Source: Rhodospirillales bacterium
Lineage (GTDB): Bacteria > Pseudomonadota > Alphaproteobacteria > Rhodospirillales > SHVQ01
Reading direction: 5' to 3'
Assembly: GCA_009694195.1 (NCBI GenBank)
Contig: SHVQ01000009.1
Span: 10,294 to 74,293 of the forward strand
DNA length: 64,000 nt
Below are positions 32,714-48,396 of this stretch, piece after piece. A program made the position numbers and the translations under genes. Every line of letters starts with the position of its first letter. The stretch's first letter is position 1. Below the pieces are notes generated by a model. It saw only the letters and a program-made list of their open reading frames with translations, was not told the DNA's origin and ran no database searches.

Positions 32714-33694
32714 ATGCCCCGAACGTCCCGCCGAGCCGCCAAGACGCCGTCCAAAGACGACATCGCGCGGCTCTATCGCGGGCTTTTCCTCATTCGCCGG
32801 GCGGAAGAGGAGGTCGAGCACGTCTACCCCTCGGACAAGATCAAGAGCCCGGTTCATCTCGCCATCGGCCAGGAAGCGGTGTCGGTCGCCATCTGCGACG
32901 CCTTGCGCCCCGATGACGTGCTCGGATGCACCTACCGCTCCCATGCCGCGTATCTCGCCAAAGGCGGCGATCTCGGAGCGATGATGGCCGAGATGTACGG
33001 AAAGGCGACGGGGTGTGCCCGCGGCAAGGGCGGTTCCATGCACCTGGTCGACATGCAGCACCTGCTGCTCGGAGCGTCGGCGGTGGTCGGCACCGGGATT
33101 CCCATCGCGGCCGGCTACGCCATCGCGCTCAAACGCGAAAAGAAGCGCCGTGTCGCGGTCACGCTCTTCGGCGACGGGGCGACAGAAGAAGGCTGCTTCT
33201 ACGAGACGCTCAACTTCGCAGGACTTCACAAGCTGCCGCTGCTCTTCGTCTGCGAAAACAATTTTTATTCCATTCACACCCACATCTCGAAGCGGTGGTC
33301 GAATCTGGACGTGTGCGGGCGGGCGCGCGCGTTCGGCGTGCCGGCGAAGCAGATCGTCGACGGTGATATCTTCAAAATTCGTGCGGCGGCCGCGGCCGCC
33401 GTCGATCGCATCCGCCGGGGCGGCGGGCCCGAGTTCCTCGAGATTCATACCTACCGCTGGCGCCAGCACGTGGGTCCCGGCGGCGACTACGACGCGGGCT
33501 ACCGGAGCGAGCGCGAGGCCAGGAAGTGGATGAAATCCGATCAGGTCGCTCGCCTCGCCGCCATGTTGGCATCCGCCACACGGGTGCGGATCGAAGACGA
33601 GGTAAACGCCAAAATCTCGGAGGCCATCGCCTTCGCCGAATCGAGCCCGTTCCCAGGGCCTGAGGATCTTCTCGCCGATGTCTTCGCCGACTGA
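32714..33694 (+). CDS. ThDP-dependent dehydrogenase E1 component, alpha subunit (pyruvate/acetoin dehydrogenase E1-like)
   Basis: 326 aa. YRSHAAYLAKGG, GKGGSMHL and the ThDP motif FGDGATEEGCFYETLNFA...LFVCENNFYS are present. Confidence 0.85.
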   Translation: MPRTSRRAAKTPSKDDIARLYRGLFLIRRAEEEVEHVYPSDKIKSPVHLAIGQEAVSVAICDALRPDDVLGCTYRSHAAYLAKGGDLGAMMAEMYGKATGCARGKGGSMHLVDMQHLLLGASAVVGTGIPIAAGYAIALKREKKRRVAVTLFGDGATEEGCFYETLNFAGLHKLPLLFVCENNFYSIHTHISKRWSNLDVCGRARAFGVPAKQIVDGDIFKIRAAAAAAVDRIRRGGGPEFLEIHTYRWRQHVGPGGDYDAGYRSEREARKWMKSDQVARLAAMLASATRVRIEDEVNAKISEAIAFAESSPFPGPEDLLADVFAD

Positions 33695-34751
33695 CCGCAA
33701 GGGCCGGCTGCTCACGTACGTGGGGGCACTGCAAGAGGCCGTCTCTCAGGAGATGGACCGCGACCCATCCGTGTTCGTGATGGGTCTCGATGTCGTCGAT
33801 CACAAAGGCATCCAAGGCTCGACGCAAGGGCTTCCCGAACGCTTCGGTCCAGACCGCGTGTTTCACACGCCGCTCTCCGAGGACGCGATGGCAGGCGTTG
33901 CCATCGGCGCCGCGATGGCGGGGATGCGCCCGATCTACGTTCACATCCGCATGGACTTCCTCATGCTCTGCATGAACCAGCTCATCAATATCGCGGCCAA
34001 GGCCCGCTACATGTACGGCGGCCAGGTCAGCGTTCCGATGGTCGTGCGCAGCATGATCGGCAAGTCGTGGGGCCAGGGCGCGCAGCATAGCCAGGGCCTG
34101 CATGCCATGTTCATGCATGTCCCCGGTCTGAAGGTCGTGGCGCCGGCGACCGCCTATGACGCCAAAGGGTGCCTCATCGCGGCAATTCGCGACAACAATC
34201 CGGTGATTTTCGTCGAACACCGGCTACTTTACTTCACCGACGCCTACGTACCTGAGGAATCCTATACCGTGCCGTTCGGACACGCCCGCGTGTGCACGCC
34301 CGGAGACGACATCACGATCGTCGGGATATCGAACATGCTGGTCGAGGCCTTGCGCGCGCGCGAGCTTTTGACAGAGGTCGGAATCCACGCCGAGGTCATC
34401 GATCCCATCTCGCTCGTGCCGCTCGACTCTGAAACAATTGTCCGCTCGGTCGCACGCACGAAGCGCCTTCTCGTCGTCGACAATGCGTGGACGACATGCG
34501 GGGCGAGCGCCGAGATCATGGCGCGTGTGATCGAGACGCTGGAACCGAGAGAGCTCCGCGCGATCCGGCGCCTCGGCTTCGCGCCCTCGACATGCCCGAC
34601 CACGCCCTCTCTCGAACGGCTCTTCTATCCGAATCCCGCCTCTATTGCCTCGGCCGCGCACGCCATGGTACGCCCCGAGGCCGATCGCTGGGAACCGAGC
34701 GCGGAAACGGCCGCGCTCGCCTACCAGATGAACTTTCGGGGGCCATTCTGA
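33678..34751 (+). CDS. ThDP-dependent dehydrogenase E1 component, beta subunit (transketolase-like pyrimidine-binding and C-terminal domains)
   Basis: 357 aa. LTYVGALQEAVSQEMDRDPSVFVMGLDV...RVFHTPLSEDAMAGVAIGAAMAGMRPI. It overlaps the alpha stop by 17 nt. Confidence 0.85.
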   Translation: MSSPTDRKGRLLTYVGALQEAVSQEMDRDPSVFVMGLDVVDHKGIQGSTQGLPERFGPDRVFHTPLSEDAMAGVAIGAAMAGMRPIYVHIRMDFLMLCMNQLINIAAKARYMYGGQVSVPMVVRSMIGKSWGQGAQHSQGLHAMFMHVPGLKVVAPATAYDAKGCLIAAIRDNNPVIFVEHRLLYFTDAYVPEESYTVPFGHARVCTPGDDITIVGISNMLVEALRARELLTEVGIHAEVIDPISLVPLDSETIVRSVARTKRLLVVDNAWTTCGASAEIMARVIETLEPRELRAIRRLGFAPSTCPTTPSLERLFYPNPASIASAAHAMVRPEADRWEPSAETAALAYQMNFRGPF

Positions 34752-35938
34752 GCAAGCCGCAGTCGCCCGCGCACTATTCGCTTGCCGCATCCTCCTGGGG
34801 CCCGGAGGAGACCGAAGCCGCTCGTCGCGTTCTCGATAGCGGCTTCGTCACCATGGGCGACAACGTGGCCCGCTTTCAAAAAGAATTCGCCGCCTACTTC
34901 GGGATGAAACACGCGGTGATGACGAATTCCGGCTCATCGGCCAATCTGATCGCGGTCGCCAGTCTCTTCTTCAAGAAGGATCGCCCGCTTCAGCGCGGCG
35001 ACGAGGTGATCGTCCCGGCCATCTCCTGGAGCACGACCTACCATCCGCTCCAGCAGTACGGCCTGAAGCTCCGCTTCGTCGACGTGAACCTGGAGACCCT
35101 CAACATCGACGAGACGAAGCTCGAAGAAGCATTGACGCCGCGGACGCGAATGATCATTGCGGTCAGCATCCTCGGCAATCCCGCGCCGCTCGACGTCATC
35201 CGAGACTTTGCCGACCGCCACGACCTCTATTTCATGGAGGACAACTGCGAATCCATGGACGCCGAGATCGAGGGACGGAAGACCGGCACATTTGGTGACC
35301 TCAACACGTTCAGCTTCTTCTTCTCCCATCACATCTCGACGATGGAAGGCGGCATGGTGCTGACGGACGACACGGAGCTCGCGCACCTCTGCCTCGCCTT
35401 GCGCGCGCACGGCTGGACGCGGGACCTGCCGGTCGGAAGCCCGCTTTTCGAGCGCCGCTCCAACGATCACTTCGAGGCCTACCGGTTCATTCTGCCCGGC
35501 TATAACGTCCGGCCGCTGGAAATTTCGGGAGCGATCGGGCGCGAGCAGTTGAAAAAACTGCCGGCGATGACCGAGGCCCGCCGCAGGAACTGGGCCGTGT
35601 TTCACGGGCTCTTCGCGGGCGACGAGCGTTTCATTATCCAACGCGAAAACGGAAAGACATCCTGTTTTTGCTTCACGATCGTGCTCAATCCGAAGCGCAA
35701 CCCAAACCGCGAGCGCATCTTCGAGGCGCTCCGCGACGCCGACATCGGCTTCCGCATCATTACCGGCGGTTGCTTTCTTGCCCACGACGCGATCAAGTAT
35801 TTCGACTACACGACGGTCGGCACGATGGAGAACGCGTTTACGGCGCATGAGCTCGGTTTCTTTGTCGGCAACCACCCCTACGACCTGACGCCGCAGATCG
35901 GGCGCCTGCGCGATGTCCTCGACCGCGCCTGCCGGTAG
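34747..35938 (+). CDS. colD: PLP/PMP-dependent NDP-4-keto-6-deoxyhexose 3-dehydratase, ColD-like (DegT/DnrJ/EryC1 family with His replacing the catalytic Lys)
   Basis: YSLAASSWGPEE..., NSGSSANL, EDNCESM, FSFFFSHHISTMEGG (HH at 35327-35332) and LRAHGWTR are present. No canonical start lies before the conserved N-terminus; the only candidates are ATT at 34747 or CTG at 34750, overlapping the E1-beta TGA. Confidence 0.75.
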
Positions 35939-35945
35939 ACCGTCG

Positions 35946-36890
35946 ATGGCCAAGCCGCTCAACATTCTCGTCACCGGCGGCGGCGGCTATCTGGGATCGG
36001 TCCTGGTCCCGGAGTTGCTCGCGGCCGGGCACCGGGTCACGGTGCTCGACACCTTCATGTACCGGCAGAACTCGCTCGCGAGCGTATGCTCCGATCCCAA
36101 CTTCGACGTCGTACGCGGCGACGCCCGCAATCCCGACACTTTGACGCCCTTGATAAAGCGGGCCGACCTTGCGATTCCTCTGGCGGCCATCGTCGGCGCA
36201 CCCGCCTGCGACCGCGATCGGGTTGCGGCCGAAAGCGTCAACCGAGATGCCGTCGTCACGCTGCTGGGCCTTCTCGGCCGCAACCAGCGGGTCATGATGC
36301 CGATCACCAACAGCGGCTATGGTGTCGGCGAGAAGGGCAAGTTCTGTACAGAGGACACGCCGCTCCGGCCGGTCTCGCTGTACGGCCGGACGAAGGTCGA
36401 GGCCGAAAGAGCGGCGCTCGAGCGCGGCAATTGCATCAGCTTCCGTCTCGCGACCGTGTTCGGCATGGCACCGCGCATGCGGATCGATCTCTTGGTCAAT
36501 GATTTCGTCCACCGCGCCGTCTACGACCGCGCGGTCGTCGTGTTCGAGGGCCACTTCAAGCGCAACTACATCCACATCCGCGACGTGGCGCGCGCGTTCC
36601 TGCATGGCATCGAGCGCTTCGATGCGATGAAGGACCGGCCTTACAACGTCGGCCTCTCGGACGCCAATCTCTCGAAGATCGAGCTTTGCGAGCGGATCAA
36701 AAAACATCTGCCGAAATTCGTTTACCTGGAGGCGCCGGTCGGGGAGGACCCGGACAGGCGCGACTACATCGTCTCCAACGCCAGAATCGAGGCAACGGGC
36801 TTCCGTCCGCGCCATACCCTCGACGAAGGCATCGGCGAGCTCATCAAAGGATACAAGATGATCCGCGATGCGAGGTTCGGGAACGTGTAG
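35946..36890 (+). CDS. NAD-dependent epimerase/dehydratase (extended SDR)
   Basis: LNILVTGGGGYLGSVLVPELLAAGHRVTVLD is the Rossmann motif and SLYGRTKVEAE is the YxxxK motif. The ATG at 35946 lies 8 nt after the ColD-like stop. Confidence 0.85.
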   Translation: MAKPLNILVTGGGGYLGSVLVPELLAAGHRVTVLDTFMYRQNSLASVCSDPNFDVVRGDARNPDTLTPLIKRADLAIPLAAIVGAPACDRDRVAAESVNRDAVVTLLGLLGRNQRVMMPITNSGYGVGEKGKFCTEDTPLRPVSLYGRTKVEAERAALERGNCISFRLATVFGMAPRMRIDLLVNDFVHRAVYDRAVVVFEGHFKRNYIHIRDVARAFLHGIERFDAMKDRPYNVGLSDANLSKIELCERIKKHLPKFVYLEAPVGEDPDRRDYIVSNARIEATGFRPRHTLDEGIGELIKGYKMIRDARFGNV

Positions 36891-36940
36891 GGGCGGACAT
36901 TCCTCTCCCGCCCCTACTCTCGCAAAACGGCCTGCTCCGA

Positions 36941-37150: not shown

Positions 37151-37186
37151 GGATTCGTCGAACGCGCGGGCCTGACGAAGAAGGAC

Positions 37187-37633
37187 ATGCGTCGGCTCAA
37201 CCTGCGCGGCGTTAATTTCAGCGGCATGGGGATGCGCGGCGTGAACCTCAAAGAGGCCACTTTGAGCGATGGCTTGTTCATCTTCACCACCCTTTCGTAC
37301 GCGGATCTCAGCGGCGCCAAAGCCGAGGGCGCCGATTTCGACGCCGCGGCCCTCACCCACTCGAATTTCACCGGCGCCTTCCTCAAAAAGGCGAACTTTC
37401 GTCCCGTGGAAGTCTTCGGCGCCGACGGCAAGTCGACCGGACAGTCGTGGTACGCGAACCTGTCGAACACGAACTTCACCGGCGCCGACCTCACGGAGGC
37501 GCATTTCCGCGAAGCCAATCTCGAGGGCGCCAATTTCGACAAAGCCACCGTCAAGGGCACGCATTTCGAGAAATGCAAGATCGATTCGAAGACGGAGCCG
37601 GAGCTTCGTAAGCTGGGCGCGCTCGTGAGTTGA
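37187..37633 (+). CDS. pentapeptide-repeat protein
   Basis: MRRLNLRGVNFSGMGMRGVNLKEATLSDG...ADLSGAKAEGADFDAAALTHSNFTGAFLKKANF...NFTGADLTEAHFREANLEGANFDKATVKGTHFEKCKI shows the A(D/N)LxX periodicity. The start is uncertain. Confidence 0.7.
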   Translation: MRRLNLRGVNFSGMGMRGVNLKEATLSDGLFIFTTLSYADLSGAKAEGADFDAAALTHSNFTGAFLKKANFRPVEVFGADGKSTGQSWYANLSNTNFTGADLTEAHFREANLEGANFDKATVKGTHFEKCKIDSKTEPELRKLGALVS

Positions 37634-37766: not shown

Positions 37767-39248
37767 ATGGATCTCGTGCTCGTCAATCCCGGTGGCCGGG
37801 AGGCCATCTACCAGGAGCTCGGCACCGACCTCACGGCGGTCGAGCCGCCGCTTTGGTGCCGGCTTCTCGCCGGCTATGCGCGGGACCGCGGCCACTCCGT
37901 CGCCATCCTCGATTCGGAGGCCGAATCGTGGGGTCCGGAGACGGTGGCGAAGCGGGTCGCGGAGCTCGACCCCAGGCTCGTCTGCATGGTGGTGTTCGGC
38001 CATCAGCCGTCCGCCTCCACGCAGCAGATGGTCGGCGCGAGCGCGGCCTGCGCCGCGATCAAGCGGGCGGCGCCGGCCGTTCCCCTCCTCATCGTCGGCG
38101 GCCACGTCTCGGCTTTGCCCGCGCGCACCTTGCGGGAGGAAAGCGTCGATTACGCCTGCAAGGGCGAGGGACCGGTCACCGTCGACCGCCTGCTCGCGGC
38201 CTTGAAGGCCGACCGCGCATCCGACCTGAGTACCATTCCCGGCCTTGTGTGGCGCGATGGAGACGCCGTTCGCGTCAACCCGTCGGCACCGTTGATCCAG
38301 GACCTCGACGCGGACCTCCACGGCAACGCATGGGACCTGCTGCCGATGGAGAAGTACCGGGCGCACAACTGGCAGTGCTTCGGGGATCTGAATAGCCGGA
38401 AGCCCTACGCGTCGATCTATACGTCCCTCGGCTGTCCCTATAAGTGCCACTTCTGCTGCATCAACGCGCCGTTCGAGGTGAACCGCTACCGGATGCGCAA
38501 CCCGGACAAGGTGGCCGCCGAAATCGACCGCCTCCACGCCGCTTACGGGGTGAAGACGATCAAGATCATCGATGAGATGTTCGTGCTGAACGAGCGGCAC
38601 GTGCTCGCGATCTGCGATCGCCTGATCGAGCGCGACTACGACCTGAACATCTGGGCCTATGCGCGGGTCGACACGGTGAAGCAGCACATGCTGGACCGGC
38701 TCCGGCGCGCGGGCGTGCGCTGGCTCGCGCTCGGCATCGAGTCGGGCTCGAAGCACGTCCGTGACGGGGCGCTGAAATCGCTGAAGCAGGACGACATCGT
38801 CGGCATCGTCAGGGCGATCCAAGCCGCCGATATCAACGTCATCGGGAATTTCATCTTCGGCCTGCCCGACGACAACATCGACACCATGCGTGAAACGCTC
38901 GGCCTCGCACAGGGGCTCAACTGCGAGTTCGCCAACTTCTATTCGGCCATGGCCTATCCGGGCTCTCCCCTCTACGCGACGGCACTCGCGAAGGGATGGC
39001 CGCTTCCCGAGCGCTGGTCCGGCTATTCACAGCACAGCTACGATTGCCTCCCGCTGCCGACCGAGTCGCTCTCGGCCGCCGCCGTCCTCAAGTTCCGCGA
39101 CGAGGCTTTCCACGAATACTTCGCGAGCCCGCGCTATCTTGAAATGGTGCAGCGCCGGTTCGGCCGCGAGACCCGTGCCCACATCGAGGACATGGCCGGC
39201 CACCGCCTCAGGCGAAAAATCCTCGAGGGGCGGGAAGCCGCCGAATGA
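37767..39248 (+). CDS. B12-binding-domain radical SAM enzyme (class B, probable C-methyltransferase)
   Basis: 493 aa. The N-terminal Rossmann-like LVLVNP...VAILDSEAE...LVCMVVFG...LLIVGGHVSALP is cobalamin-domain-like. The CPYKCHFC (Cx3Cx2C) motif lies at 38433-38456. Confidence 0.8.
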   Translation: MDLVLVNPGGREAIYQELGTDLTAVEPPLWCRLLAGYARDRGHSVAILDSEAESWGPETVAKRVAELDPRLVCMVVFGHQPSASTQQMVGASAACAAIKRAAPAVPLLIVGGHVSALPARTLREESVDYACKGEGPVTVDRLLAALKADRASDLSTIPGLVWRDGDAVRVNPSAPLIQDLDADLHGNAWDLLPMEKYRAHNWQCFGDLNSRKPYASIYTSLGCPYKCHFCCINAPFEVNRYRMRNPDKVAAEIDRLHAAYGVKTIKIIDEMFVLNERHVLAICDRLIERDYDLNIWAYARVDTVKQHMLDRLRRAGVRWLALGIESGSKHVRDGALKSLKQDDIVGIVRAIQAADINVIGNFIFGLPDDNIDTMRETLGLAQGLNCEFANFYSAMAYPGSPLYATALAKGWPLPERWSGYSQHSYDCLPLPTESLSAAAVLKFRDEAFHEYFASPRYLEMVQRRFGRETRAHIEDMAGHRLRRKILEGREAAE

Positions 39249-41019: not shown

Positions 41020-41619
41020 ATGGTGAAGCCCGCGGGAGAGAAAGGGGCGCCGCCTGTCTCCGTGCGCGGGCGCCGCCTGCTCGGCGAGAACCGCGTGTGG
41101 AACGTGTACCTCGACCATATCGTCGGCGAGTCCGGTGCCGCCATCGAGGACTATCTGGTCGTCGAGCCGAAGGGCCTTGGCGCCACCGGCATCGGCGGCG
41201 TCGCCATCCTTCCGATCTGGGAGGGCGACATCGTGCTGCTGAAGGCCTACCGCCACCCCGTCCGCCTCTACACGTGGGAGCTCGCGCGCGGATTCCTCGA
41301 CCCCGGGGAAGAGCCCGCGGCCGCCGCGCTTCGCGAGATGGAGGAAGAAACCGGCCTCACGTGCGCTCCGGCCGACATCCGGCCGCTCGGCTACGTGCTT
41401 CCCGAATCGAGCACGATCGCCGGCAAGGAGGCCGTCTTCGTCGCCTTGAAGTGCAGGCCGGGCGGCGCCGTCGACACCAGCGAGCCCGGGCTCGGGAATC
41501 GCCACCGGTTTTCACCGCAAGACGTGAAGCGCATGCTGGCGCGCTACGAGATCGAGGACGCAACCGCGGTCGTGACTCTCTATCGATATTTCGCGCTCGG
41601 CGACGAGCCCGCGCGCTAG
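41020..41619 (+). CDS. NUDIX hydrolase (nucleotide-sugar/ADP-ribose pyrophosphatase-like)
   Basis: The Nudix box GFLDPGEEPAAAALREMEEETGL is present. Confidence 0.85.
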   Translation: MVKPAGEKGAPPVSVRGRRLLGENRVWNVYLDHIVGESGAAIEDYLVVEPKGLGATGIGGVAILPIWEGDIVLLKAYRHPVRLYTWELARGFLDPGEEPAAAALREMEEETGLTCAPADIRPLGYVLPESSTIAGKEAVFVALKCRPGGAVDTSEPGLGNRHRFSPQDVKRMLARYEIEDATAVVTLYRYFALGDEPAR

Positions 41620-42705: not shown

Positions 42706-42783
42706 ACGACGCGGTGGCGGTCCCTCCGCTTGACACCCCCTGCCCCCGGCCATATACGCCGGACCACGAAAGAGGGGGCCTGA

Positions 42784-43776
42784 ATGGGCCAGTTTCTCGC
42801 CGACATCCGCGAGCATCGCAGCTTCGTGCTCGGTTTCGCGCCTATCGCCGCGCTTGCGCTGGCCATGGGCGTGGGAGCGCCGCTCGCCATTCAGTCCCTC
42901 GGAGATCGGATTCCGGTCGTGGGGGCGCTGCTGCACGCGATCGGGATCGCGTTCGATCCGAAAATCCTCTACCTGCCGCTCGGCATGGTGTTCGTCACCC
43001 TCGTGAGCCTCGGGATCGAAGCCGCCGGCCTCGGCTATCGCGATTCCACCGTGCGCCGCATCCTGACGAACCGGTCGCCGTCCGTGCGCACGGACCTGTT
43101 CTATTTTCTGCTGCGCGTTTCCGGCCTCACGGCCCTCATCGCCTTTCTGGTCTCGTTCGGGACGTTCGGGCTGCTCGTCGGCTGGATCGAGCAGCGGGTG
43201 GATCTCCGGGTGCTGCAACACGTCGAGAACCCGGCTGTCCAGTTCGCGGCCGTGGCGCTCGCGCAGTCGCTCGCCTTCTACCTCTTCCATCGCCTCATGC
43301 ACACGAAGCTCTTGTGGGAGGTTCACAAGGTCCATCACTCGGCCGAGGACTACAATCCGCTGCTTCCCTACCGGAACCACCCCATCGATTTCCTCGGCGC
43401 CACCCTGCTCGGCGCGCTTTTCGCGGCCGTGCTGGGTGCCGGCGCCGAAGTCGTGACCGCCTGGAGCGTGGCTAACGGCTTCTACCAGTCGCTCGTCCAT
43501 TCCCGGCTTCAATGGAAATGGAAATGGCTGGAGTCCGTCGTCATCACGCCCGCCGCCCATCGCGTCCACCATTCGACGGCGCCCGAGCACTTCAACCGCA
43601 ACTACGGCATCCTCACATTTTGGGATTGGCTGTTCGGAACCTACTACGCGCCGCGCGGGGAGCCGGCCGAGATCGGCGTCGCCGACCGCGCCAATTTCAA
43701 CACCGACCGGTATTTCGCCGAGATGGGCCTCGTCGTCCTCCGGTGGCTCGGGCGCGCGCGGGCGGGGCGCGGATGA
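42784..43776 (+). CDS. fatty acid hydroxylase / sterol desaturase superfamily membrane di-iron enzyme
   Basis: 330 aa and polytopic. It carries the His boxes HRLMH, HKVHHS and HRVHHS. Confidence 0.8.
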   Translation: MGQFLADIREHRSFVLGFAPIAALALAMGVGAPLAIQSLGDRIPVVGALLHAIGIAFDPKILYLPLGMVFVTLVSLGIEAAGLGYRDSTVRRILTNRSPSVRTDLFYFLLRVSGLTALIAFLVSFGTFGLLVGWIEQRVDLRVLQHVENPAVQFAAVALAQSLAFYLFHRLMHTKLLWEVHKVHHSAEDYNPLLPYRNHPIDFLGATLLGALFAAVLGAGAEVVTAWSVANGFYQSLVHSRLQWKWKWLESVVITPAAHRVHHSTAPEHFNRNYGILTFWDWLFGTYYAPRGEPAEIGVADRANFNTDRYFAEMGLVVLRWLGRARAGRG

Positions 43777-45248
43777 CCGCGCCGGCACGCTCTCGCGCCC
43801 GGCCGTTTCCCTTCTATGTGCTGGCGGCGCTCGTCTATGCGAGCCTGCTCGCCGTCGCCGTGCTTTATCTCGCTTACCCCGCGTTCATCGATCACGGCGA
43901 GCCCAGCACGCTCTTGATCGCCTGGCGTCTTCTCCAAGGCTTGCCTGCCTACCCGCCGTTTTCGGCGCCCGAGCGGATCACCAACATTTACGGGCCCCTC
44001 GCCTACGGCGTGAATACGGTCGTGCTCGCCGCGTTCGGCCCTTCGATCCCGGCCGGCAAGGCGGCCGCGGTCGCGGCCGCCATCGCCATGCCGGCGATGA
44101 TCTTCTGGAGCCGCATCCGCGACGGCTGGACGGTCGCCGCGGCCGGAGTTCTGCTGGCGGCAGGCTACGCGCTCCTTCACTTGCCCGCCACGGTGTGGAA
44201 CCGCCCGGATTCCTTCGTGGCGCTCTGCGTCGCCGTTGCGCTCGCGGTCTTGCGGATGCAAAGCCTGGATGGCCGCGAGACCCTGCGCGCCCTCCTGATC
44301 GCGCTCTGCGCGGCGCTTGCGGCGGGCGCCAAGCTGCACGCGGCGCTCTACTTCGCGCCCATCGTCCTCTTTTACGTCTGGGAGCGCGGGCTCGGAACGC
44401 TCATCCTCATGGGCGCCGCCGGAGCGCTTCTGGTGCTGGCGCCGTTCGCGCTGCCGCCCTTCTCGCTCGTCGACTATCTCTCCTGGTTCGAGCCGGTGGC
44501 GGCCGGCAAGCAGAACTCGTGGGGCGTCTTTCTCAAGGTTTTCCGCTACTCGCTGTTCTATTTCGCGCCGCTCGTGTTTCCGCTGCTCGATCGGAAGACG
44601 CTGCGCGCCCGCGACTGGGCGTACGTCGGCGCCTACGCGGGATGCCTCGTCTTGTCGTTCTTCCCCGCCTCGAAGCCGGGCGCCGGGATGCATTACCTCT
44701 TGCCGTTCGCCCCCATTGCCGTCGATATCGCGCTCCGCTACGGCGCCGCGGGGTTCACCAAGCGGATGGCGACAGCCGCGGCCGCCATCCTCGCCCTCGC
44801 CCTTCTCGCGGTCAGCATGCCCATCCAGGAACGCTTCGTTCGCGCGCTGCACTGGGACGAGGCCCGCGCCGTCGGCGGCGAGATTCGGCAGATCATGGCC
44901 GACTTCAGCGGCCGGACCATCGAAATGGGCGTCGGCGACACCGTCGTCTCCTACCCCCGCACGTTCCAGAAGACGATCCTGGTCACGGCGGGGCACCCCT
45001 ACTCACTCGACGCGGCGATCGTGACGGAGACGGCCTATCTCAAGATCCCGCTGCCGCCGGAGACGGTTGCCCGCATTCGCGCCTGCCGCACGGACGTTTG
45101 GCTCATCCCCGCGGGCGAGCGCCCGTTCGCCATGGTCGGCTATTACGCGATGCCGGCGTTCGGCCAGGAGTTCCAGGACGCGTTCCTCGCCGCCTACGAG
45201 AAGCGCCGGAGCTATCGGTACTTCGACGCTTGGGCCTGCCGGCGTTAG
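43773..45248 (+). CDS. polytopic membrane protein, probable GT-C-fold glycosyltransferase (ArnT/PMT_2-like architecture)
   Basis: 491 aa with about 10 TM segments, then a ~150-aa soluble C-terminal domain. An ATGA overlap links it to the hydroxylase gene. Called on architecture and context only. Confidence 0.5.
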   Translation: MTAPARSRARPFPFYVLAALVYASLLAVAVLYLAYPAFIDHGEPSTLLIAWRLLQGLPAYPPFSAPERITNIYGPLAYGVNTVVLAAFGPSIPAGKAAAVAAAIAMPAMIFWSRIRDGWTVAAAGVLLAAGYALLHLPATVWNRPDSFVALCVAVALAVLRMQSLDGRETLRALLIALCAALAAGAKLHAALYFAPIVLFYVWERGLGTLILMGAAGALLVLAPFALPPFSLVDYLSWFEPVAAGKQNSWGVFLKVFRYSLFYFAPLVFPLLDRKTLRARDWAYVGAYAGCLVLSFFPASKPGAGMHYLLPFAPIAVDIALRYGAAGFTKRMATAAAAILALALLAVSMPIQERFVRALHWDEARAVGGEIRQIMADFSGRTIEMGVGDTVVSYPRTFQKTILVTAGHPYSLDAAIVTETAYLKIPLPPETVARIRACRTDVWLIPAGERPFAMVGYYAMPAFGQEFQDAFLAAYEKRRSYRYFDAWACRR

Positions 45249-46201
45249 CCGGACATCGGACCGCCCGGCTCGAAGCCGATCTTGTCCTGGATGATGAAGC
45301 GGGGGCGCCCGCGCACTTCCTTGTAAATCCGCAGCACGTAGAGCCCGAGCGTGCCGATCGCGGCGACGATCGTCGCCCAAAAAAATGTGAGGAGCCCGAT
45401 AAACGCGAGCGTGCGGCCGCCCGCGTGGCCGGCGAGGCTCATCAGAAGGCCCGCGAGGACGGCCACGACCGCGGCGATGATCCCGATCAGCCCCGTGCCG
45501 GCAATCACATAGATCGGGACGAACGAAAAGGACGTGATCGCGGTGATGAAGGCCTTCGCCGGATTACGGCTGAACAGCGGGAATTTGCTGGTTCCACGCG
45601 CGCGCCCGACCCGCTCGTAGGGCACGGTCTCCTGACGGAACCCGATCCAGGCCGCAAGCCCGCGAATGTAGGGATCGTATTCCTTCAGGCACAGAAACTG
45701 ATCGAGCGCGCGGCGGGAGAGTAGCTTGAAATCTCCCGCCTCGACCGGAAGCTTGAGGGTCGAAAAAAAACGGATGATCTGATACGCCCGCTTGGTCACC
45801 CATTTCTTGAGCCAGGTCTCTCCCTTGCGATCGAGCCGCACGGTGTGGATGACGTCCGCGCCCGCCCGCCAGCGCTGTAACAGCTCCGGCAGAAGCTCGG
45901 GCGGGTCCTGCAGATCGCTGTCCATGTAGATGAGCGCGTCGCCCGAAGCCACGCTCATGCCGGCCAGCACGCCCTCCGACGGCCCGAAGCGGCGCGACAG
46001 CGTGATGACCTTGATCCGGGGGTTCCTTTCCCGCTCGCCGAGGAGAACCTCGAGCGAACGGTCGGTCGAGGCGTCGTTGACGAAGATGAGCTCGTAGTCC
46101 TCGGGTCCCGGCTCGAGCGCCTTCGCCACTCGCGCGATCAATTCCGGCAGGTTCTGTTCCTCGTTCCGAAACGAGAACACGACGGAAACAAGCTGCGTCA
46201 T
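45245..46201 (-). CDS. family 2 glycosyltransferase, polyprenyl-phosphate sugar transferase type (ArnC/GtrB/DPM1-like)
   Basis: From the ATG at 46201: VSVVFSFRNEEQNL..YELIFVNDASTDRS, YMDSDLQDPPE (the DxD region) and two C-terminal TM helices. Confidence 0.85.
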   Translation of the reverse strand: MTQLVSVVFSFRNEEQNLPELIARVAKALEPGPEDYELIFVNDASTDRSLEVLLGERERNPRIKVITLSRRFGPSEGVLAGMSVASGDALIYMDSDLQDPPELLPELLQRWRAGADVIHTVRLDRKGETWLKKWVTKRAYQIIRFFSTLKLPVEAGDFKLLSRRALDQFLCLKEYDPYIRGLAAWIGFRQETVPYERVGRARGTSKFPLFSRNPAKAFITAITSFSFVPIYVIAGTGLIGIIAAVVAVLAGLLMSLAGHAGGRTLAFIGLLTFFWATIVAAIGTLGLYVLRIYKEVRGRPRFIIQDKIGFEPGGPMSG

Positions 46202-46338
46202 TCTGCGCCCTCCCGCTGCCGTGTACGCTATCTCGGGAACCGAAAGCAAGCCGCCGCAGGGCACGGGCGCCCTGAATTGCATCCCGCTCGATCTCCCTTT
46301 ACGATGCAGCCGATTCCAGAGGATGTGAGCGGGATTCA

Positions 46339-48396
46339 GTGCCGAAGCGCAAAAAAGTCGTTTATTTCAACGAGTACAACGTCCGCATGGGGCGGGCGAC
46401 GTACTTTCCCCTGGTTTCCGGGATCCTGCGCGCTTACGCGGAGACCAACCCCCCCGTCAAAGCCGGCTACAAGTTCAAGCCGTTCATCTTCTATCTCGAC
46501 GCAGCCGACCGCATTCTCGCCCAGTACGACGAGGCGCCCGACGTCGCCGCCTTCTCGATCGCCATGTGGAACGAGCAGCTGAGCCTGCACGTCGCCCGCG
46601 TGATCAAGGAGCGCTGGCCCGCGTGTCTGATCGTCTTCGGCGGCTGCCAGACCCCGCACCATCCGGAGGACTATTTCGCCGAGCATCCGTTTATCGACGT
46701 GGCGGTGCGGGCGGAAGGGGAAGAAGCGTTCTACGGCGTGATGGAGCGCTTTCTCGAGTCCCGCGATTTCAAGGGGATCGTGAACGTCTCCTACCGGCAC
46801 CCGCAGACCGGCGCCATCGTTTACAACCCGGAAGAGTCGGAATTCGGCCGCGATCTCGATTCCTATCCGTCGCCCTACCTGGAAGGGCTCTTCAACTACA
46901 TGTTCGAGGCCCATCCGGAGATCGACTTCCAGGCGATCGTCGAGACCAACCGGGGCTGCCCGTTTCTCTGCACGTTCTGCTACTGGGGCCGCGGCGGCAC
47001 CACGCGCAAATACCGCTACCACGACCTCGGCCGGGTCGAGGCCGAGATCAATTGGGCGGGGCACCGCCGCATCAAGTACATGTTCAACGCCGATTCCAAT
47101 TTCGGCATGCACAAGCGCGATCCCGAGATCGCCAAGTTTCTCGTCTCGACGAAGAAAAAGTACGGATTTCCGGAGAAGTTCCGCACCTGTTGGGGAAAGA
47201 ACACCGACGAGAACATTTTCGCGATTGCCTCGCTCCTGCATGAGCACGAGCTCGAAAAAGGCATCACCCTCGCCCGCCAGAGCAACAGCAAGAAGGTGCT
47301 CGCCAACATCAAGCGCGGCAACATCAAGCTCGCGACCTACGAAAACCTGCAGCGGCTGTTCAACGACCGCGAGATTCCCGTCTATTCGGAGATGATCCTG
47401 GGGCTGCCCGGCGAGACGTACGAAAGCTGGCGGGACGGGATCGAAGAGCTGCTGCGGGCCGGTCTCAAGAACCAGCTCTTCGTCTACCAATGCGAGGTCT
47501 ACCCGAACACCGAGCTCGGCGAGCCCGCGTACCAGAAGAAATTCGGCATCGTGACCAAGCGCATCGAGTTGCGCGAAATCCACGGCAGCGTGCGCGACGC
47601 CAACTGGGTCCCGGAGTATCAGGACATCATCGTCGCGAGCGACTCGATGACGGTCGAGGACTGGCGGCGGATGACGCGCTTCTCGACTCTGACCATGCTC
47701 ATGCACAGCATGAAGGTGGGCTTCTTCCTGATCTCTTATCTCACCGACCGGTTCGGCATCGCGTACACGAGCTTCATCGAGCACATTTCGGACCGCCGGA
47801 TGGCCGCCGGCACGGGCGCGATGCTGCTGACCGAGCTCGCCCTCTACGACGATTACACGCAGCGGCTGCTCGACGGGAAAGGACGCGGACTCGAAATGCC
47901 GGGGTTCGGCGACTTCTACTGGGACGTGGAGGAAGCGAGCTTCCTCCGGCTCGCCGGGGACTTCGACCGGTTCTACCGCGAGCTCTTCGACGTGGTCTGC
48001 GGGTTCCTCGACGGCCGCGGCATCGTTTACGACCGGGACGAGGTGTCGGACGCGCTCCAATACCAGCGCCTCCGCATGCCGACCGCCGCGCCCGCATCAG
48101 GAACGGAAGCCGCGTTCCGCACCAACATGCCGGAGTACTTCGCCCGCCGCTTCGGGACCGAGCCGATCCCGGTCGCAGCGGAACGTCAGGCCTTGCATCC
48201 GAAGCCCAAGGATTTCGGCGGGGACCGCGTGCGCTTCGCGCGCGAGTCGATCCTCTGGGGGCGGAAGAGCGGCACGATGCTGGTCGACTGCGACTGGGCG
48301 TCGGTCGACCGGCCATGGGTCACGTCCGAGACCCTCGCGCAGCCGCACGCCAAGCCGGCCGTCGAGCTTCCCCGCGCCGCGAACTTGGGCGAGTAG
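46339..48396 (+). CDS. B12-binding-domain radical SAM enzyme with long C-terminal extension
   Basis: 685 aa. The N-terminal cobalamin-domain-like VAAFSIAMWNEQ...LIVFGGCQ is present. The CPFLCTFC (Cx3Cx2C) motif lies at 46957-46980. About 250 aa follow with no recognised motif. Confidence 0.8.
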   Translation: MPKRKKVVYFNEYNVRMGRATYFPLVSGILRAYAETNPPVKAGYKFKPFIFYLDAADRILAQYDEAPDVAAFSIAMWNEQLSLHVARVIKERWPACLIVFGGCQTPHHPEDYFAEHPFIDVAVRAEGEEAFYGVMERFLESRDFKGIVNVSYRHPQTGAIVYNPEESEFGRDLDSYPSPYLEGLFNYMFEAHPEIDFQAIVETNRGCPFLCTFCYWGRGGTTRKYRYHDLGRVEAEINWAGHRRIKYMFNADSNFGMHKRDPEIAKFLVSTKKKYGFPEKFRTCWGKNTDENIFAIASLLHEHELEKGITLARQSNSKKVLANIKRGNIKLATYENLQRLFNDREIPVYSEMILGLPGETYESWRDGIEELLRAGLKNQLFVYQCEVYPNTELGEPAYQKKFGIVTKRIELREIHGSVRDANWVPEYQDIIVASDSMTVEDWRRMTRFSTLTMLMHSMKVGFFLISYLTDRFGIAYTSFIEHISDRRMAAGTGAMLLTELALYDDYTQRLLDGKGRGLEMPGFGDFYWDVEEASFLRLAGDFDRFYRELFDVVCGFLDGRGIVYDRDEVSDALQYQRLRMPTAAPASGTEAAFRTNMPEYFARRFGTEPIPVAAERQALHPKPKDFGGDRVRFARESILWGRKSGTMLVDCDWASVDRPWVTSETLAQPHAKPAVELPRAANLGE

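What the first reader, a model, noticed from the sequence alone, without database searches (positions are those of the whole stretch)
32714..48396. Unclassified ~15.7 kb glycan-tailoring cluster: orphan E1 alpha/beta + ColD-type dehydratase + two B12-radical SAM enzymes + sugar activation trio + hydroxylase + GT2/GT-C pair
About sixteen consecutive ORFs, many with overlapping stop/start codons (33678/33694, 34747/34751, 39245/39248, 40003/40006, 43773/43776), combine parts from different known pathways. These are a ThDP E1 alpha/beta pair without E2/E3, a His-for-Lys DegT-family 3-dehydratase and an SDR. They also include a class-B radical SAM enzyme translationally coupled to a nucleotidyltransferase and GHMP kinase, a Nudix hydrolase and a Zn-ribbon SAM methyltransferase. 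The last elements are a di-iron hydroxylase, a GT-C-like membrane protein, an ArnC/GtrB-like GT2 and a second, larger B12-radical SAM enzyme. I see no Wzx/Wzy/Wzz, O-antigen ABC exporter or initiating phosphoglycosyltransferase, so it does not look like a classical O-antigen or capsule locus. The GT2 plus GT-C logic instead resembles Arn/Gtr-type periplasmic decoration systems. My inference is a pathway for a GDP- or other NDP-linked 3,6-dideoxy sugar that is C2-branched and C-methylated. That sugar would be loaded on a polyprenyl phosphate and transferred to lipid A, LPS core, another glycan or a protein. I do not recognise this gene combination as a described pathway. A Phd/VapC module lies immediately to the left.
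Basis: partly seen in the sequence, partly recalled or inferred. Interest (0 to 1): 0.8.

Follow-up and report, generated by a model that had tools for sequence, protein, structure and literature searches.

The report
Conserved pathway for an undescribed branched heptose
This stretch is a real gene cluster, conserved across many bacteria, that most likely builds an unusual branched sugar from an activated seven-carbon sugar and attaches it to the cell envelope through a lipid carrier; the sugar and two of its radical enzymes have not been described.

Summary
Window 32714-48396 carries 14 genes with the predicted domains; two of them (methyltransferase, GT2) are on the minus strand.

It is not a chance juxtaposition. 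Relatives of the first radical SAM enzyme (rSAM-1) occur in at least 573 species genomes. In 36 loci with full flanks:
- 29 carry the ColD-like dehydratase;
- all 29 also carry a ThDP enzyme (E1 alpha/beta or split transketolase; YerE-like in other loci);
- 28 of those 29 carry the SDR.

The GT-C protein always comes with the GtrB-like GT2, and its orthologues are found essentially only next to this cassette.

The SDR is about 57% identical to PDB 6vo6, which I recall is C. jejuni Cj1427, a GDP-heptose C4-dehydrogenase. The kinase and nucleotidyltransferase are HddA/HddC-like, and GmhA/GmhB sit beside the cassette in some genomes. The precursor is therefore probably GDP-D-glycero-D-manno-heptose. 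The product would be 3-deoxy and C4-acyl-branched, not 3,6-dideoxy.

- rSAM-2 is TokK/CysS-like, a probable C-methylase.
- rSAM-1 cannot be assigned; it is as close to a diol dehydratase as to methylases.
- The acceptor is unknown.

I found no description of this system in the searched literature. Novelty: new variant of known kinds.

The parts
32714..33694 (+). ThDP-dependent E1 alpha subunit (alpha-keto acid dehydrogenase-2 type, no E2/E3); proposed donor-activating half of the sugar C-branching enzyme
   Evidence: Pfam E1_dh 2e-62. It scores below the NCBIfam PDH cut-offs. The GDG...NN ThDP motif is visible in the sequence. It co-occurs with ColD in 25 of 29 full-flank loci.
33678..34751 (+). 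E1 beta subunit; overlaps the alpha gene by 17 nt
   Evidence: Pfam Transket_pyr plus Transketolase_C. Homologues are 63-77% identical in 38 of 80 loci.
34745..35938 (+). ColD-type PLP/PMP-dependent sugar 3-dehydratase (His in place of the Schiff-base Lys); start codon uncertain
   Evidence: PDB ColD 2gms, E 6e-117, over the full length, with SHHI aligned. The ATG conserved in homologues is GCG here.
35913..36890 (+). SDR; probable GDP-heptose C4-dehydrogenase that supplies the 4-keto substrate for the dehydratase
   Evidence: PDB 6vo6/6vo8, E 4e-109, about 57% identity over residues 17-324. It is paired with ColD in 28 of 29 full-flank loci.
37187..37633 (+). Pentapeptide-repeat protein; lineage-specific insertion, probably not part of the pathway
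   Evidence: Pfam Pentapeptide. It is absent from all but one of the related loci.
37767..39248 (+). rSAM-1: class-B-type (B12-binding domain plus radical SAM) enzyme; the most conserved gene and anchor of the cassette; reaction unknown
   Evidence: Pfam B12-binding plus Radical_SAM. The CX3CX2C motif is present. Relatives are 64-76% identical in at least 573 species genomes. Nearest structures are TsrM, AprD4, MgmA and OxsB, at similar distance. Fusions to the nucleotidyltransferase exist.
39245..40006 (+). Sugar-1-phosphate nucleotidyl(guanylyl)transferase, HddC-like; ATGA overlap with rSAM-1
   Evidence: Best PDB match is HddC 6jq8/5xhw at 7.5e-30, followed by GDP-mannose pyrophosphorylases.
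40003..41007 (+). GHMP sugar kinase, HddA/WcbL-like (anomeric heptose kinase family); GTGA overlap
   Evidence: PDB WcbL 4usk/4usm and heptose kinases 3k85 and 4n3o, E 1e-28 to 1e-31. It lies next to rSAM-1 in 63 of 80 loci.
41020..41619 (+). Nudix NDP-sugar pyrophosphatase (proofreading or flux control)
   Evidence: Pfam NUDIX. Nearest structures are ADP-sugar pyrophosphatases. Present in 21 of 80 loci.
41621..42496 (-). Zn-ribbon plus class I SAM methyltransferase
   Evidence: Pfam Methyltransf_23/11/12/25. The CxxC...CxxC N-terminus is visible. Orthologues lie next to the cassette in L006-L008, L051, L099 and L101.
42784..43776 (+). Membrane di-iron hydroxylase (fatty acid hydroxylase superfamily, distantly OlsE-like)
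   Evidence: Pfam FA_hydroxylase 7e-28. The His boxes HRLMH, HKVHH and HRVHH are present. It lies next to the GT-C gene in L007, L008, L088 and L169, and co-occurs with it in L099 and L101.
43773..45248 (+). GT-C fold glycosyltransferase (ArnT/PMT-like) that would use a polyprenyl-phosphate-linked sugar; ATGA overlap with the hydroxylase gene
   Evidence: AF2 model pLDDT 91. Foldseek top hits are ArnT 5f15, Emb, STT3, ALG9 and PglB. Pfam PMT_2 is hit by 11 of 19 homologues. Glu43 after TM1 is invariant.
45245..46201 (-). GtrB/ArnC-type GT2: polyprenyl-phosphate glycosyltransferase
   Evidence: PDB GtrB 5ekp 1e-58/5eke 2e-59, ArnC 7e-39, DPMS. NCBIfam PgfS/ArnC hits fall below cut-off. It accompanies GT-C in 12 of 12 loci.
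46339..48396 (+). rSAM-2: TokK/CysS/KedN5-type cobalamin radical SAM enzyme; probable (possibly iterative) C-methyltransferase
   Evidence: PDB TokK 7kdx 1.7e-87 over the full length, and CysS 6.5e-51. NCBIfam KedN5 scores 261 bits, below the 700 cut-off. L169 has the same right-half gene order. In L170 the gene heads an E1ab-ColD-SDR operon.

Best explanation
This is a self-contained pathway that makes an undescribed nucleotide sugar and delivers it to the envelope through a lipid carrier.

Proposed steps:
1. [quoted passage not shown] (Inferred.)
2. rSAM-1 modifies this heptose nucleotide or its immediate precursor. (Inferred; the reaction is unknown. C-methylation and radical dehydration or rearrangement are about equally likely.)
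3. The Cj1427-like SDR oxidises C4. (Inferred from about 57% identity.)
4. The ColD-like enzyme removes the 3-OH to give a GDP-3-deoxy-4-keto-heptose. This two-enzyme reaction was shown in vitro with the C. jejuni homologues (PMC10680097). ColD makes alpha-ketoglutarate from glutamate, and the dehydrogenase consumes alpha-ketoglutarate.
5. The orphan E1 alpha/beta pair decarboxylates pyruvate and adds the C2 acyl unit to the C4 ketone, creating a tertiary alcohol. This is the yersiniose/AviB1-B2 logic.
6. The TokK-like rSAM-2 and the Zn-ribbon methyltransferase add further methyl groups.
7. The Nudix enzyme hydrolyses off-pathway or excess NDP-sugar.
8. The GtrB-like GT2 loads the sugar on polyprenyl phosphate. 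After flipping, the GT-C enzyme transfers it to a periplasmic acceptor, most likely lipid A, LPS core or O-antigen.
9. The membrane di-iron hydroxylase acts on the lipid acceptor or carrier.

Shown here: domain identities, active-site His, folds and cross-genome co-conservation. Inferred: substrates, order of steps, product and acceptor.
For: Domain and structure matches:
- ColD, E 6e-117, with the His motif.
- SDR against 6vo6, E 4e-109.
- HddA/WcbL and HddC are the best PDB hits for the kinase and nucleotidyltransferase.
- GtrB 5eke, E 2e-59.
- GT-C fold with ArnT as top hit.
- TokK, E 1.7e-87.

Co-conservation:
- Unbiased clustering of ORFs in 83 loci ranks exactly these genes at the top: rSAM-1 78, GHMP 57, SDR 49, ColD 44, E1b 33, E1a 30, NTP 23, GT2 21, GT-C 13.
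- 24 of 80 loci have all seven core genes, and 19 of those are collinear.
- All 29 ColD-bearing full-flank loci have a ThDP enzyme.
- The ThDP enzyme is non-orthologously replaced by a YerE-like enzyme (L008, L015, L093-L101) or by a split transketolase (L004, L018, L025, L034-L036).
- GT-C and GT2 bracket the cassette in L023, L027 and L060.
- GT-C orthologues of at least 34% identity on contigs with enough flank mostly carry cassette genes (8 loci: L093-L095, L097-L099, L101, L102); none of the more distant relatives do.

Heptose origin:
- GmhA and GmhB are adjacent in L030 and L054; a GmhA-like gene is also adjacent in L003/L026, L013, L028 and L053.

Position of rSAM-1 in the pathway:
- Minimal modules contain rSAM-1, the nucleotidyltransferase and the kinase, with GmhA/GmhB in L030 and L054 but not L010, and without ColD or a ThDP enzyme (L010, L030, L054).
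- rSAM-1 is fused to the nucleotidyltransferase in P0007 and P0109. Both facts place rSAM-1 at the GDP-heptose stage.

Literature:
- Cj1427 plus a C3-dehydratase make GDP-D-glycero-3-deoxy-4-keto-heptose in vitro (PMC10680097).
- YerE-like, E1 alpha/beta-type and transketolase ThDP enzymes are the three known classes that branch keto-sugars (PMC12247030; PMC9306805; PMC4753412).
Against: - No protein reaches a curated NCBIfam equivalog cut-off, so every substrate assignment is by family resemblance.
- The identity of 6vo6 as Cj1427 rests on my memory; the structure paper could not be opened.
- GmhA and GmhB are not in this window.
- ManC-type GDP-mannose enzymes flank the cassette in some genomes, so a hexose precursor is not excluded.
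- No ketoreductase for the branch and no flippase gene were recognised in the cluster.
- The ColD-like ORF lacks the conserved start codon, so the step may be impaired in this particular genome.
- The acceptor is unknown.
- In many other genomes the same cassette sits in ordinary O-antigen-type loci without GT-C.
Confidence: 0.6

Rival explanations
1. One reading: a hexose pathway. GDP-mannose is converted to GDP-4-keto-6-deoxymannose, with the SDR acting as a 4,6-dehydratase. ColD then makes the 3,6-dideoxy-4-keto sugar. That sugar is C2-branched and C-methylated, so the product would be a colitose/yersiniose-like 3,6-dideoxyhexose.
For: - ColD's characterised substrate is GDP-4-keto-6-deoxymannose, and the window protein is a full-length ColD homologue.
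- ManC genes flank the cassette in M. moscoviense and A. halopraeferens.
- The SDR gives weak hits to 4,6-dehydratase models.
Against: - The SDR is about 57% identical to 6vo6, against E of about 1e-14 to 1e-17 for true 4,6-dehydratases.
- The best matches of the kinase and nucleotidyltransferase are heptose enzymes.
- A salvage-type GHMP kinase is not needed for GDP-mannose.
- GmhA and GmhB are adjacent in several loci.
- The HS:5 ColD-type dehydratase accepts the 6-hydroxy heptose 4-ketone in vitro.
Confidence: 0.2
2. rSAM-1 is not a methylase. It would be a radical dehydratase or rearranging enzyme (AprD4/OxsB/HpnJ-like) acting on the heptose side-chain diol. The resulting carbonyl, together with the C4 acyl branch, could close a carbocycle. 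That would give an inositol-fused higher sugar of the bradyrhizose type (C7 + C2 + methyl = C10).
For: - The best TM-score among PDB neighbours is AprD4, a sugar 1,2-diol dehydratase (TM 0.60-0.64; E 4e-18).
- The best NCBIfam hits are the non-methylases BchE and HpnJ.
- Minimal modules pair rSAM-1 with an Fcl-like reductase but with no enzyme that would make a 4-ketone (L010, L030). This recalls the AprD4/AprD3 pair.
- Four invariant Cys beyond the CX3CX2C triad suggest an auxiliary cluster.
- Bradyrhizose genes were unknown as of 2016 (PMC4743980).
Against: - TsrM, MgmA, CysS and TokK, all methylases, are equally close.
- The B12-binding domain is well preserved.
- The putative bradyrhizose operon was described as containing a dTDP-glucose 4,6-dehydratase, and no radical SAM enzyme was mentioned.
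- ColD would make a 3-deoxy sugar, and bradyrhizose is not 3-deoxy.
- No direct evidence exists for cyclisation.
Confidence: 0.2
3. The cassette only supplies a precursor for a conventional O-antigen or capsule made elsewhere in the genome. The GT2/GT-C pair, hydroxylase and rSAM-2 would be an unrelated neighbouring lipid A or lipid modification module.
For: - In many genomes the core cassette sits among GT1/GT2/GT4, Wzm-type ABC, Glf and RmlD genes, without GT-C.
- The hydroxylase family acts on lipids.
Against: - GT-C orthologues are found essentially only next to the cassette.
- GT-C and GT2 bracket the cassette in L023, L027 and L060.
- The order hydroxylase, GT-C, GT2, rSAM-2 recurs in L169. 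In L170 rSAM-2 heads the E1ab-ColD-SDR operon.
- The window holds no O-antigen assembly genes.
Confidence: 0.12
4. It is a secondary-metabolite (glycosylated antibiotic) cluster. E1 alpha/beta-type sugar-branching enzymes and TokK/KedN5/CysS-type methylases are so far known from such pathways.
For: - Literature so far places E1-type branching enzymes in antibiotic clusters.
- rSAM-2 is closest to TokK and CysS.
Against: - There are no PKS, NRPS, aglycone, resistance or export genes.
- The cluster is flanked by housekeeping genes.
- It contains GtrB-like and GT-C envelope enzymes.
- It is conserved across hundreds of Gram-negative species, often within LPS loci.
Confidence: 0.04

Closest known systems
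Yersiniose/erwiniose-type acyl-branched LPS sugars (E1/RfbH 3-dehydrase, YerE ThDP carboligase, YerF reductase on CDP-3,6-dideoxy-4-keto-glucose)
   Same: A PLP/PMP 3-dehydratase makes a 3-deoxy-4-keto nucleotide sugar, and a ThDP enzyme then branches it at C4. Some orthologous cassettes use a YerE-like (acetolactate-synthase-type) enzyme in exactly this position (PMC9306805).
   Different: - The scaffold is GDP-linked (ColD-type, not the Fe-S E1/E3 pair) and probably a heptose.
- The 4-ketone comes from a Cj1427-like dehydrogenase, not a 4,6-dehydratase.
- The ThDP enzyme here is an E1 alpha/beta pair.
- No YerF-like reductase was recognised.
- Two B12-type radical SAM enzymes are added.
Campylobacter jejuni capsular GDP-heptose modification pathways (GmhA, HddA, GmhB, HddC, Cj1427 C4-dehydrogenase, HS:5 C3-dehydratase)
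   Same: The enzyme families for activation, C4 oxidation and C3 deoxygenation are the same. The predicted intermediate, GDP-D-glycero-3-deoxy-4-keto-heptose, was made in vitro by combining Cj1427 with the HS:5 dehydratase (PMC10680097).
   Different: - In C. jejuni that combination is artificial, and the products are reduced by C4-reductases.
- C. jejuni has no ThDP branching, no radical SAM enzymes, and uses capsule export rather than GT2/GT-C transfer.
AviB1/AviB2-type E1 alpha/beta (alpha-keto acid dehydrogenase 2) sugar-branching enzymes of avilamycin, paulomycin, aldgamycin and kibdelomycin
   Same: An orphan E1 alpha/beta pair without E2/E3 sits in a deoxysugar cluster, next to the enzymes that make the keto-sugar acceptor.
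   Different: The known cases are Gram-positive antibiotic pathways on dTDP-sugars. Here the pair is in envelope-glycan loci of Gram-negative bacteria on a GDP-sugar. Sequence relatedness to AviB1/B2 was not tested.
Lipid-carrier periplasmic glycosylation systems: ArnC/ArnT (L-Ara4N on lipid A), GtrA/B/C (O-antigen glucosylation), RgtE/RgtA-D,F (GalA on Rhizobium LPS), PgfS/PgfM
   Same: A GtrB/ArnC-type GT2 with C-terminal membrane helices is paired with a GT-C transferase.
   Different: - The donor sugar is different and is made by a dedicated 7-gene cassette.
- There are no ArnA/B/D genes and no recognised GtrA/ArnEF flippase.
- The GT-C family is small, distinct and unannotated (24 database clusters).
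- The acceptor is unknown.
TokK/ThnK/CysS/KedN5 cobalamin-dependent radical SAM methylases; Fom3 and GenK as methylases of sugar-like or nucleotide-activated substrates
   Same: rSAM-2 aligns over its full length with TokK and CysS. The coupling of rSAM-1 to a nucleotidyltransferase recalls Fom3, which acts on a cytidylylated substrate (from my own knowledge).
   Different: No member of these families is known to act on a GDP-heptose or an LPS sugar. rSAM-1 belongs to none of the characterised subfamilies.

Membership tests
ColD-type GDP-sugar 3-dehydratase | DegT/aspartate-aminotransferase fold with full-length similarity to ColD | tested here: met
   PDB 2gms/3gr9, E 6e-117 to 3e-115, residues 8-390 against 5-389.
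ColD-type GDP-sugar 3-dehydratase | Catalytic His in place of the PLP-binding Lys | tested here: met
   SHHIS aligns with ColD SHHIA. The H188N mutant entry 3b8x reads SNHIA at the same place.
ColD-type GDP-sugar 3-dehydratase | Intact gene with the conserved N-terminus and start codon | tested here: inconclusive
   Homologues start MFYELA. The window has GCG at the Met position and no canonical start nearby.
Cj1427-type GDP-heptose C4-dehydrogenase | Close full-length sequence similarity to the solved enzyme | tested here: met
   6vo6, E 3.6e-109, about 57% identity over 308 residues. That 6vo6 is Cj1427 is from memory.
Cj1427-type GDP-heptose C4-dehydrogenase | [quoted passage not shown] | not testable with these tools
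   Needs an enzyme assay.
[quoted passage not shown] | HddA and HddC equivalogs | tested here: inconclusive
   The best PDB and NCBIfam matches are HddA/WcbL and HddC. However, the scores (120 and 94 bits) are far below the curated cut-offs of 600 and 300.
[quoted passage not shown] | GmhA isomerase and GmhB phosphatase present | tested here: not met
   Both are absent from the 64-kb window. GmhA and GmhB are adjacent to the cassette in L030 and L054, and a GmhA-like gene in L013, L028, L053 and L003/L026. They may lie elsewhere in this genome.
E1 alpha/beta (alpha-KADH2) sugar-branching ThDP enzymes | E1 alpha plus E1 beta without E2/E3, genomically tied to a keto-sugar-forming enzyme | tested here: met
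   Pfam domains. No E2/E3 in the window. ColD co-occurs with a ThDP enzyme in 29 of 29 full-flank loci.
E1 alpha/beta (alpha-KADH2) sugar-branching ThDP enzymes | Carboligation of pyruvate-derived hydroxyethyl-ThDP to a sugar ketone | not testable with these tools
   Supported only indirectly, by replacement with YerE-like and transketolase genes in orthologous cassettes.
Cobalamin-dependent radical SAM methylases (TokK/CysS/KedN5 type) - rSAM-2 | B12-binding domain, CX3CX2C motif and full-length similarity to a solved methylase | tested here: met
   TokK 1.7e-87 (residues 13-603) and CysS 6.5e-51. CPFLCTFC motif. The KedN5 NCBIfam model scores 261 bits, below the 700 cut-off.
Cobalamin-dependent radical SAM methylases - rSAM-1 | Membership of a subfamily with demonstrated methyl transfer | tested here: inconclusive
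   It has class B architecture. The nearest relatives are split between methylases (TsrM, MgmA, CysS, TokK) and non-methylases (AprD4, OxsB; BchE and HpnJ models). All are distant.
GtrB/ArnC polyprenyl-phosphate glycosyltransferases | GT2 catalytic domain with DXD motif plus C-terminal transmembrane hairpin; similarity to GtrB/ArnC structures | tested here: met
   5eke 2e-59 and ArnC 7e-39, over the full length. DSD motif and hydrophobic C-terminus are seen in the sequence.
GT-C glycosyltransferases (ArnT/PMT-like) | GT-C membrane fold with an acidic motif in the first extracytoplasmic loop | tested here: met
   Foldseek top hit ArnT, with all significant hits GT-C. Glu43 invariant and His41 nearly invariant. 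PMT_2 is hit by 11 of 19 homologues, but not by the window protein itself.
Arn (L-Ara4N) pathway | ArnA, ArnB, ArnD and ArnE/F alongside ArnC/ArnT | tested here: not met
   None were found in the window. The DegT-family gene is a ColD-type dehydratase, not an ArnB transaminase.
Classical O-antigen/capsule locus | Wzx/Wzy/Wzz or Wzm/Wzt exporter and an initiating phosphoglycosyltransferase | tested here: not met
   No such domains were found among the ORFs scanned across the window. The only ABC exporter (59464-62223) is paired with HlyD, which is type I secretion-like.

The most novel reading that the evidence does not exclude
A radical SAM enzyme family present in at least 573 species (rSAM-1) performs previously unknown chemistry directly on a nucleotide-activated heptose. 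That chemistry could be C-methyl chain extension, or a radical dehydration or rearrangement. Together with C4 oxidation, 3-deoxygenation and ThDP branching, it would generate a new class of higher, C4-branched (possibly carbocycle-fused, bradyrhizose-like) envelope sugars. A dedicated new GT-C family would install them from a polyprenyl-phosphate carrier.
Probability: 0.4. Interest if true: 0.8.

Novelty: new variant of a known kind. Interest (0 to 1): 0.62.

Why it matters
- If the model holds, it defines a widespread, uncharacterised route to a new bacterial envelope sugar. It occurs in Rhodospirillales and many other Alphaproteobacteria, and also in Acidobacteriota, Verrucomicrobiota and Chloroflexota MAGs.
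- It would be, to my knowledge, the first case of B12-type radical SAM enzymes acting on a GDP-heptose.
- It would bring E1 alpha/beta-type sugar branching out of antibiotic pathways and into Gram-negative envelope biology.
- It offers a natural three-way experiment, because E1 alpha/beta, YerE-like and transketolase enzymes occupy the same pathway slot.
- It gives concrete candidate genes for unexplained higher or branched sugars in alphaproteobacterial LPS.
- It identifies a new GT-C family with a defined donor pathway.
- Culturable carriers exist (Magnetospirillum, Azospirillum halopraeferens, Tistlia, Desertibaculum), so all of this is directly testable.

Tried and rejected
- Erwiniose idea. 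I first thought rSAM-1 might extend a heptose to an 8-deoxy-octose. I dropped this as an explanation of erwiniose after reading PMC9306805: erwiniose and caryophyllose arise from longer alpha-keto acid donors on a 3,6-dideoxyhexose.
- Bradyrhizose link. The 2016 paper gives no gene list beyond a dTDP-glucose 4,6-dehydratase. I had no way to query photosynthetic Bradyrhizobium genomes, so this stays a low-probability speculation.
- Literature searches for the gene combination returned nothing relevant. A search for '6VO6' found no relevant paper. The Cj1427 structure paper and Krug et al. 2024 (an in silico survey of ThDP sugar-branching clusters) could not be opened.
- The promoter/terminator scan was at chance level.
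- The lower-GC stretch at 10-28 kb was suspected to be a glycan island. It proved to hold housekeeping genes: HflX, NtrBC/NtrYX, Dus, IspDF.
- Structure prediction plus fold search of rSAM-1 did not separate a methylase from a non-methylase.
- NCBIfam gave no equivalog-level assignment for any protein.

Full report
1. WHAT IS THERE

Six-frame ORFs and Pfam/NCBIfam scans give this map:

| Coordinates | Strand | Gene |
|---|---|---|
| 32714-33694 | + | E1 alpha |
| 33678-34751 | + | E1 beta |
| ~34745-35938 | + | DegT-family protein (ColD-like) |
| 35913-36890 | + | SDR |
| 37187-37633 | + | pentapeptide-repeat ORF |
| 37767-39248 | + | B12-binding-domain radical SAM enzyme (rSAM-1) |
| 39245-40006 | + | nucleotidyltransferase |
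| 40003-41007 | + | GHMP kinase |
| 41020-41619 | + | Nudix hydrolase |
| 41621-42496 | - | Zn-ribbon class I methyltransferase |
| 42784-43776 | + | FA_hydroxylase-family membrane protein |
| 43773-45248 | + | 491-aa membrane protein (GT-C) |
| 45245-46201 | - | GT2 |
| 46339-48396 | + | second B12-type radical SAM enzyme (rSAM-2) |

- A Phd/PIN pair lies to the left.
- The rest of the window is housekeeping: MetG, TatD, MazG, HflX, NtrBC/NtrYX, Dus, IspDF, SulP, DsbA, Mfd, RecG and a type I secretion pair.
- No O-antigen or capsule assembly genes were found.
- A public record names the source as a Rhodospirillales MAG.

2. IDENTITY OF THE PARTS

- DegT-family protein. It is a full-length ColD homologue (E 6e-117).
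- SDR. It matches one solved protein far better than any other: 6vo6/6vo8, E 4e-109, about 57% identity end to end. [quoted passage not shown] I could not open the structure paper to confirm the PDB code. True 4,6-dehydratases score only about 1e-14 to 1e-17.
- Kinase. It is closest to the heptose-phosphate kinases WcbL/HddA.
- Nucleotidyltransferase. It is closest to HddC, then to GDP-mannose pyrophosphorylases.
- Nudix enzyme. It is closest to NDP-sugar pyrophosphatases.
- GT2. It is a GtrB/ArnC-type polyprenyl-phosphate glycosyltransferase (5eke 2e-59).
- The 491-aa protein. It has no Pfam hit itself. An AlphaFold model built on 19 homologues (pLDDT 91) matches only GT-C enzymes, with ArnT first. 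Eleven of 19 homologues hit PMT_2.
- rSAM-2. It aligns over its full length with the iterative methylases TokK (1.7e-87) and CysS.
- rSAM-1. It has class B architecture. By sequence and by predicted fold it is about equally distant from methylases (TsrM, MgmA, CysS, TokK) and non-methylases (the sugar diol dehydratase AprD4, OxsB). Its best NCBIfam models are BchE and HpnJ.
- No protein reaches a curated NCBIfam cut-off.

3. IS IT A UNIT?

Yes. rSAM-1 has thousands of close relatives (64-76% identity). A scan of one genome per species found 573 carriers, and I fetched 80 loci. These come mostly from Rhodospirillales and other Alphaproteobacteria: Magnetospirillum, Azospirillum halopraeferens and A. 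cavernae, Tistlia, Desertibaculum and a Bradyrhizobium MAG. Acidobacteriota, Verrucomicrobiota and Chloroflexota MAGs also appear.

tblastn of every window protein against these loci gave the following:

| Gene | Present in 36 full-flank loci |
|---|---|
| ColD | 29 |
| SDR | 29 |
| E1 alpha | 24 |
| E1 beta | 25 |
| kinase | 30 |
| nucleotidyltransferase | 21 |
| GT2 | 11 |
| GT-C | 8 |

- Twenty-four of the 80 loci hold all seven core genes. In 19 of those they are collinear on one strand within 7.3-11.7 kb.
- An annotation-free clustering of all ORFs in 83 loci ranks exactly these families at the top.
- Every ColD-bearing full-flank locus (29 of 29) has a ThDP enzyme.
- In otherwise orthologous cassettes the E1 pair is replaced by one of two other enzymes. 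One is a YerE-like acetolactate-synthase-type enzyme (L008, L015, L093-L101). The other is a split transketolase (L004, L018, L025, L034-L036).
- These are the three ThDP classes that the literature recognises as branching keto-sugars (PMC12247030; PMC9306805; PMC4753412).

4. COUPLING TO GT2/GT-C

- GT-C is always accompanied by the GT2 (12 of 12 loci). In L023, L027 and L060 the two genes bracket the cassette.
- I then searched metagenomes starting from the GT-C family instead. Eight orthologues of at least 34% identity with usable flank carry cassette genes: L093-L095, L097-L099, L101 and L102. Two 5-6 kb contigs (L089, L100) show none.
- Relatives at 31% identity or less never carry cassette genes.
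- The hydroxylase and the Zn-ribbon methyltransferase travel with GT-C in a subclade: L007, L008, L088, L099, L101 and L169.
- rSAM-2 belongs to a large family of its own. In L169 the order hydroxylase, GT-C, GT2(-), rSAM-2 is the same as in the window. In L170 rSAM-2 heads an E1ab-ColD-SDR-...-nucleotidyltransferase-kinase operon.

5. PRECURSOR AND ORDER OF STEPS

- Minimal modules exist without ColD, the SDR or a ThDP enzyme:
  - L030: Fcl-like and GmhA divergent from rSAM-1, nucleotidyltransferase, kinase, Nudix and GmhB, inside an ABC-type O-antigen locus.
  - L054: rSAM-1, nucleotidyltransferase, kinase, GmhA, GmhB.
  - L010: rSAM-1, nucleotidyltransferase, kinase, Nudix, Fcl-like.
- rSAM-1 is present in these minimal modules and is fused to the nucleotidyltransferase in P0007 and P0109. 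It therefore acts at the GDP-heptose stage, independently of deoxygenation and branching.
- The Raushel/Holden work shows that Cj1427 plus a ColD-type dehydratase make GDP-D-glycero-3-deoxy-4-keto-heptose in vitro. It also shows that the dehydratase produces the alpha-ketoglutarate that the dehydrogenase needs (PMC10680097).
- The ThDP enzyme would then acylate C4.

It keeps the GDP-linked, C2-branched, lipid-carrier logic.

6. WHAT REMAINS OPEN

- The reaction of rSAM-1.
- The targets of rSAM-2, the methyltransferase and the hydroxylase.
- The flippase; none was recognised.
- The acceptor. GT9 heptosyltransferase genes next to GT-C in L006, L015, L037, L088 and L090-L092 hint at LPS core or lipid A.
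- A speculative reading is that heptose (C7) plus a C2 branch plus a methyl group equals the C10 skeleton of bradyrhizose, and that a radical enzyme could help close the carbocycle. Bradyrhizose genes were unknown as of 2016. Nothing here tests this idea.

7. ODDITIES

- Homologues of the ColD-like gene start MFYELA. The window has Ala (GCG) at the Met position. There is no canonical start between 34592 and 34853.
- rSAM-1 has four invariant cysteines beyond its CX3CX2C triad.

8. VERDICT

- The parts belong to known kinds: GDP-heptose tailoring, ColD deoxygenation, ThDP branching, class B radical SAM enzymes, and GtrB plus GT-C transfer.
- The assembled, widely conserved system and its product are undescribed in the literature I could search.
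- A 2024 in silico survey that I could not read may list such clusters.

Noticed in passing
window 34592-34853: The ColD-like ORF lacks the start codon conserved in 25 homologues (MFYELA...). The window has GCG (Ala) at 34769-34771. The only in-frame canonical starts are ATG 34592, which gives a 58-aa extension overlapping E1 beta, and ATG 34853, which deletes about 30 conserved residues and is the start used by the public gene call. Possible explanations are a CTG/ATT start at the E1 beta stop codon, an assembly error, or gene decay.
   Followed up: partly
window 36890-37767: A pentapeptide-repeat ORF (37187-37633) sits between the SDR and rSAM-1. A 69-aa LTXXQ-like ORF lies on the opposite strand, seen only in the public gene call. 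The pentapeptide ORF is absent from all but one of the related loci (a 36% match in L042), so this looks like a lineage-specific insertion into the operon.
   Followed up: partly
window 37767-39248 (rSAM-1 family, alignment A2): Seven cysteines are invariant across 25 homologues: C131, C204, C223, C227, C230, C231 and C386. Four of them lie outside the CX3CX2C triad, which may indicate an auxiliary iron-sulfur cluster. The motifs FGHQPSASTQQM and GGH in the B12-like domain are also invariant.
   Followed up: no
P0007 and P0109: Natural fusions of rSAM-1 with the nucleotidyltransferase (727 and 748 aa) exist in metagenomes.
   Followed up: no
L170:9004-9848 and 16185-17029: In a related genome two copies of an IS (DUF4096 plus DDE_Tnp_1) flank the rSAM-2-E1ab-ColD-SDR block. 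The second copy sits where rSAM-1 normally lies. That locus has rSAM-2 but no rSAM-1, and a NodZ/FUT8-like glycosyltransferase follows the kinase.
   Followed up: no
window 27250-28083: Two adjacent ORFs (27250-27660 and 27667-28083) each match half of the SBP_bac_3 solute-binding domain. This is probably a frameshifted or split gene.
   Followed up: no
window 10000-28000: G+C drops to 0.59-0.61, against 0.64-0.70 elsewhere. Even so, the genes are housekeeping (HflX, HAD hydrolase, class IV aminotransferase, NtrBC/NtrYX, Dus, cytochrome c assembly, IspDF) and not an obvious island.
   Followed up: partly
window 8055-8930 and 10239-11603; L037, L039: HflX and a 3-hydroxyisobutyrate-dehydrogenase-like gene recur near the cassette in about seven related loci. 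This suggests a shared chromosomal neighbourhood in part of the Rhodospirillales.
   Followed up: no
window 58103-62714: A 919-aa ABC exporter with an N-terminal extension sits next to a HlyD-type adaptor (type I secretion-like). A 162-aa ORF follows that consists only of a FliG C-terminal domain, and then an EAL-domain protein.
   Followed up: no
window 46339-48396: The protein search for rSAM-2 returned no 100% hit (the best was 75%). Yet the public contig that carries the other cluster genes lists a 685-aa gene at this position. This is probably a limit of the word-based candidate step.
   Followed up: no
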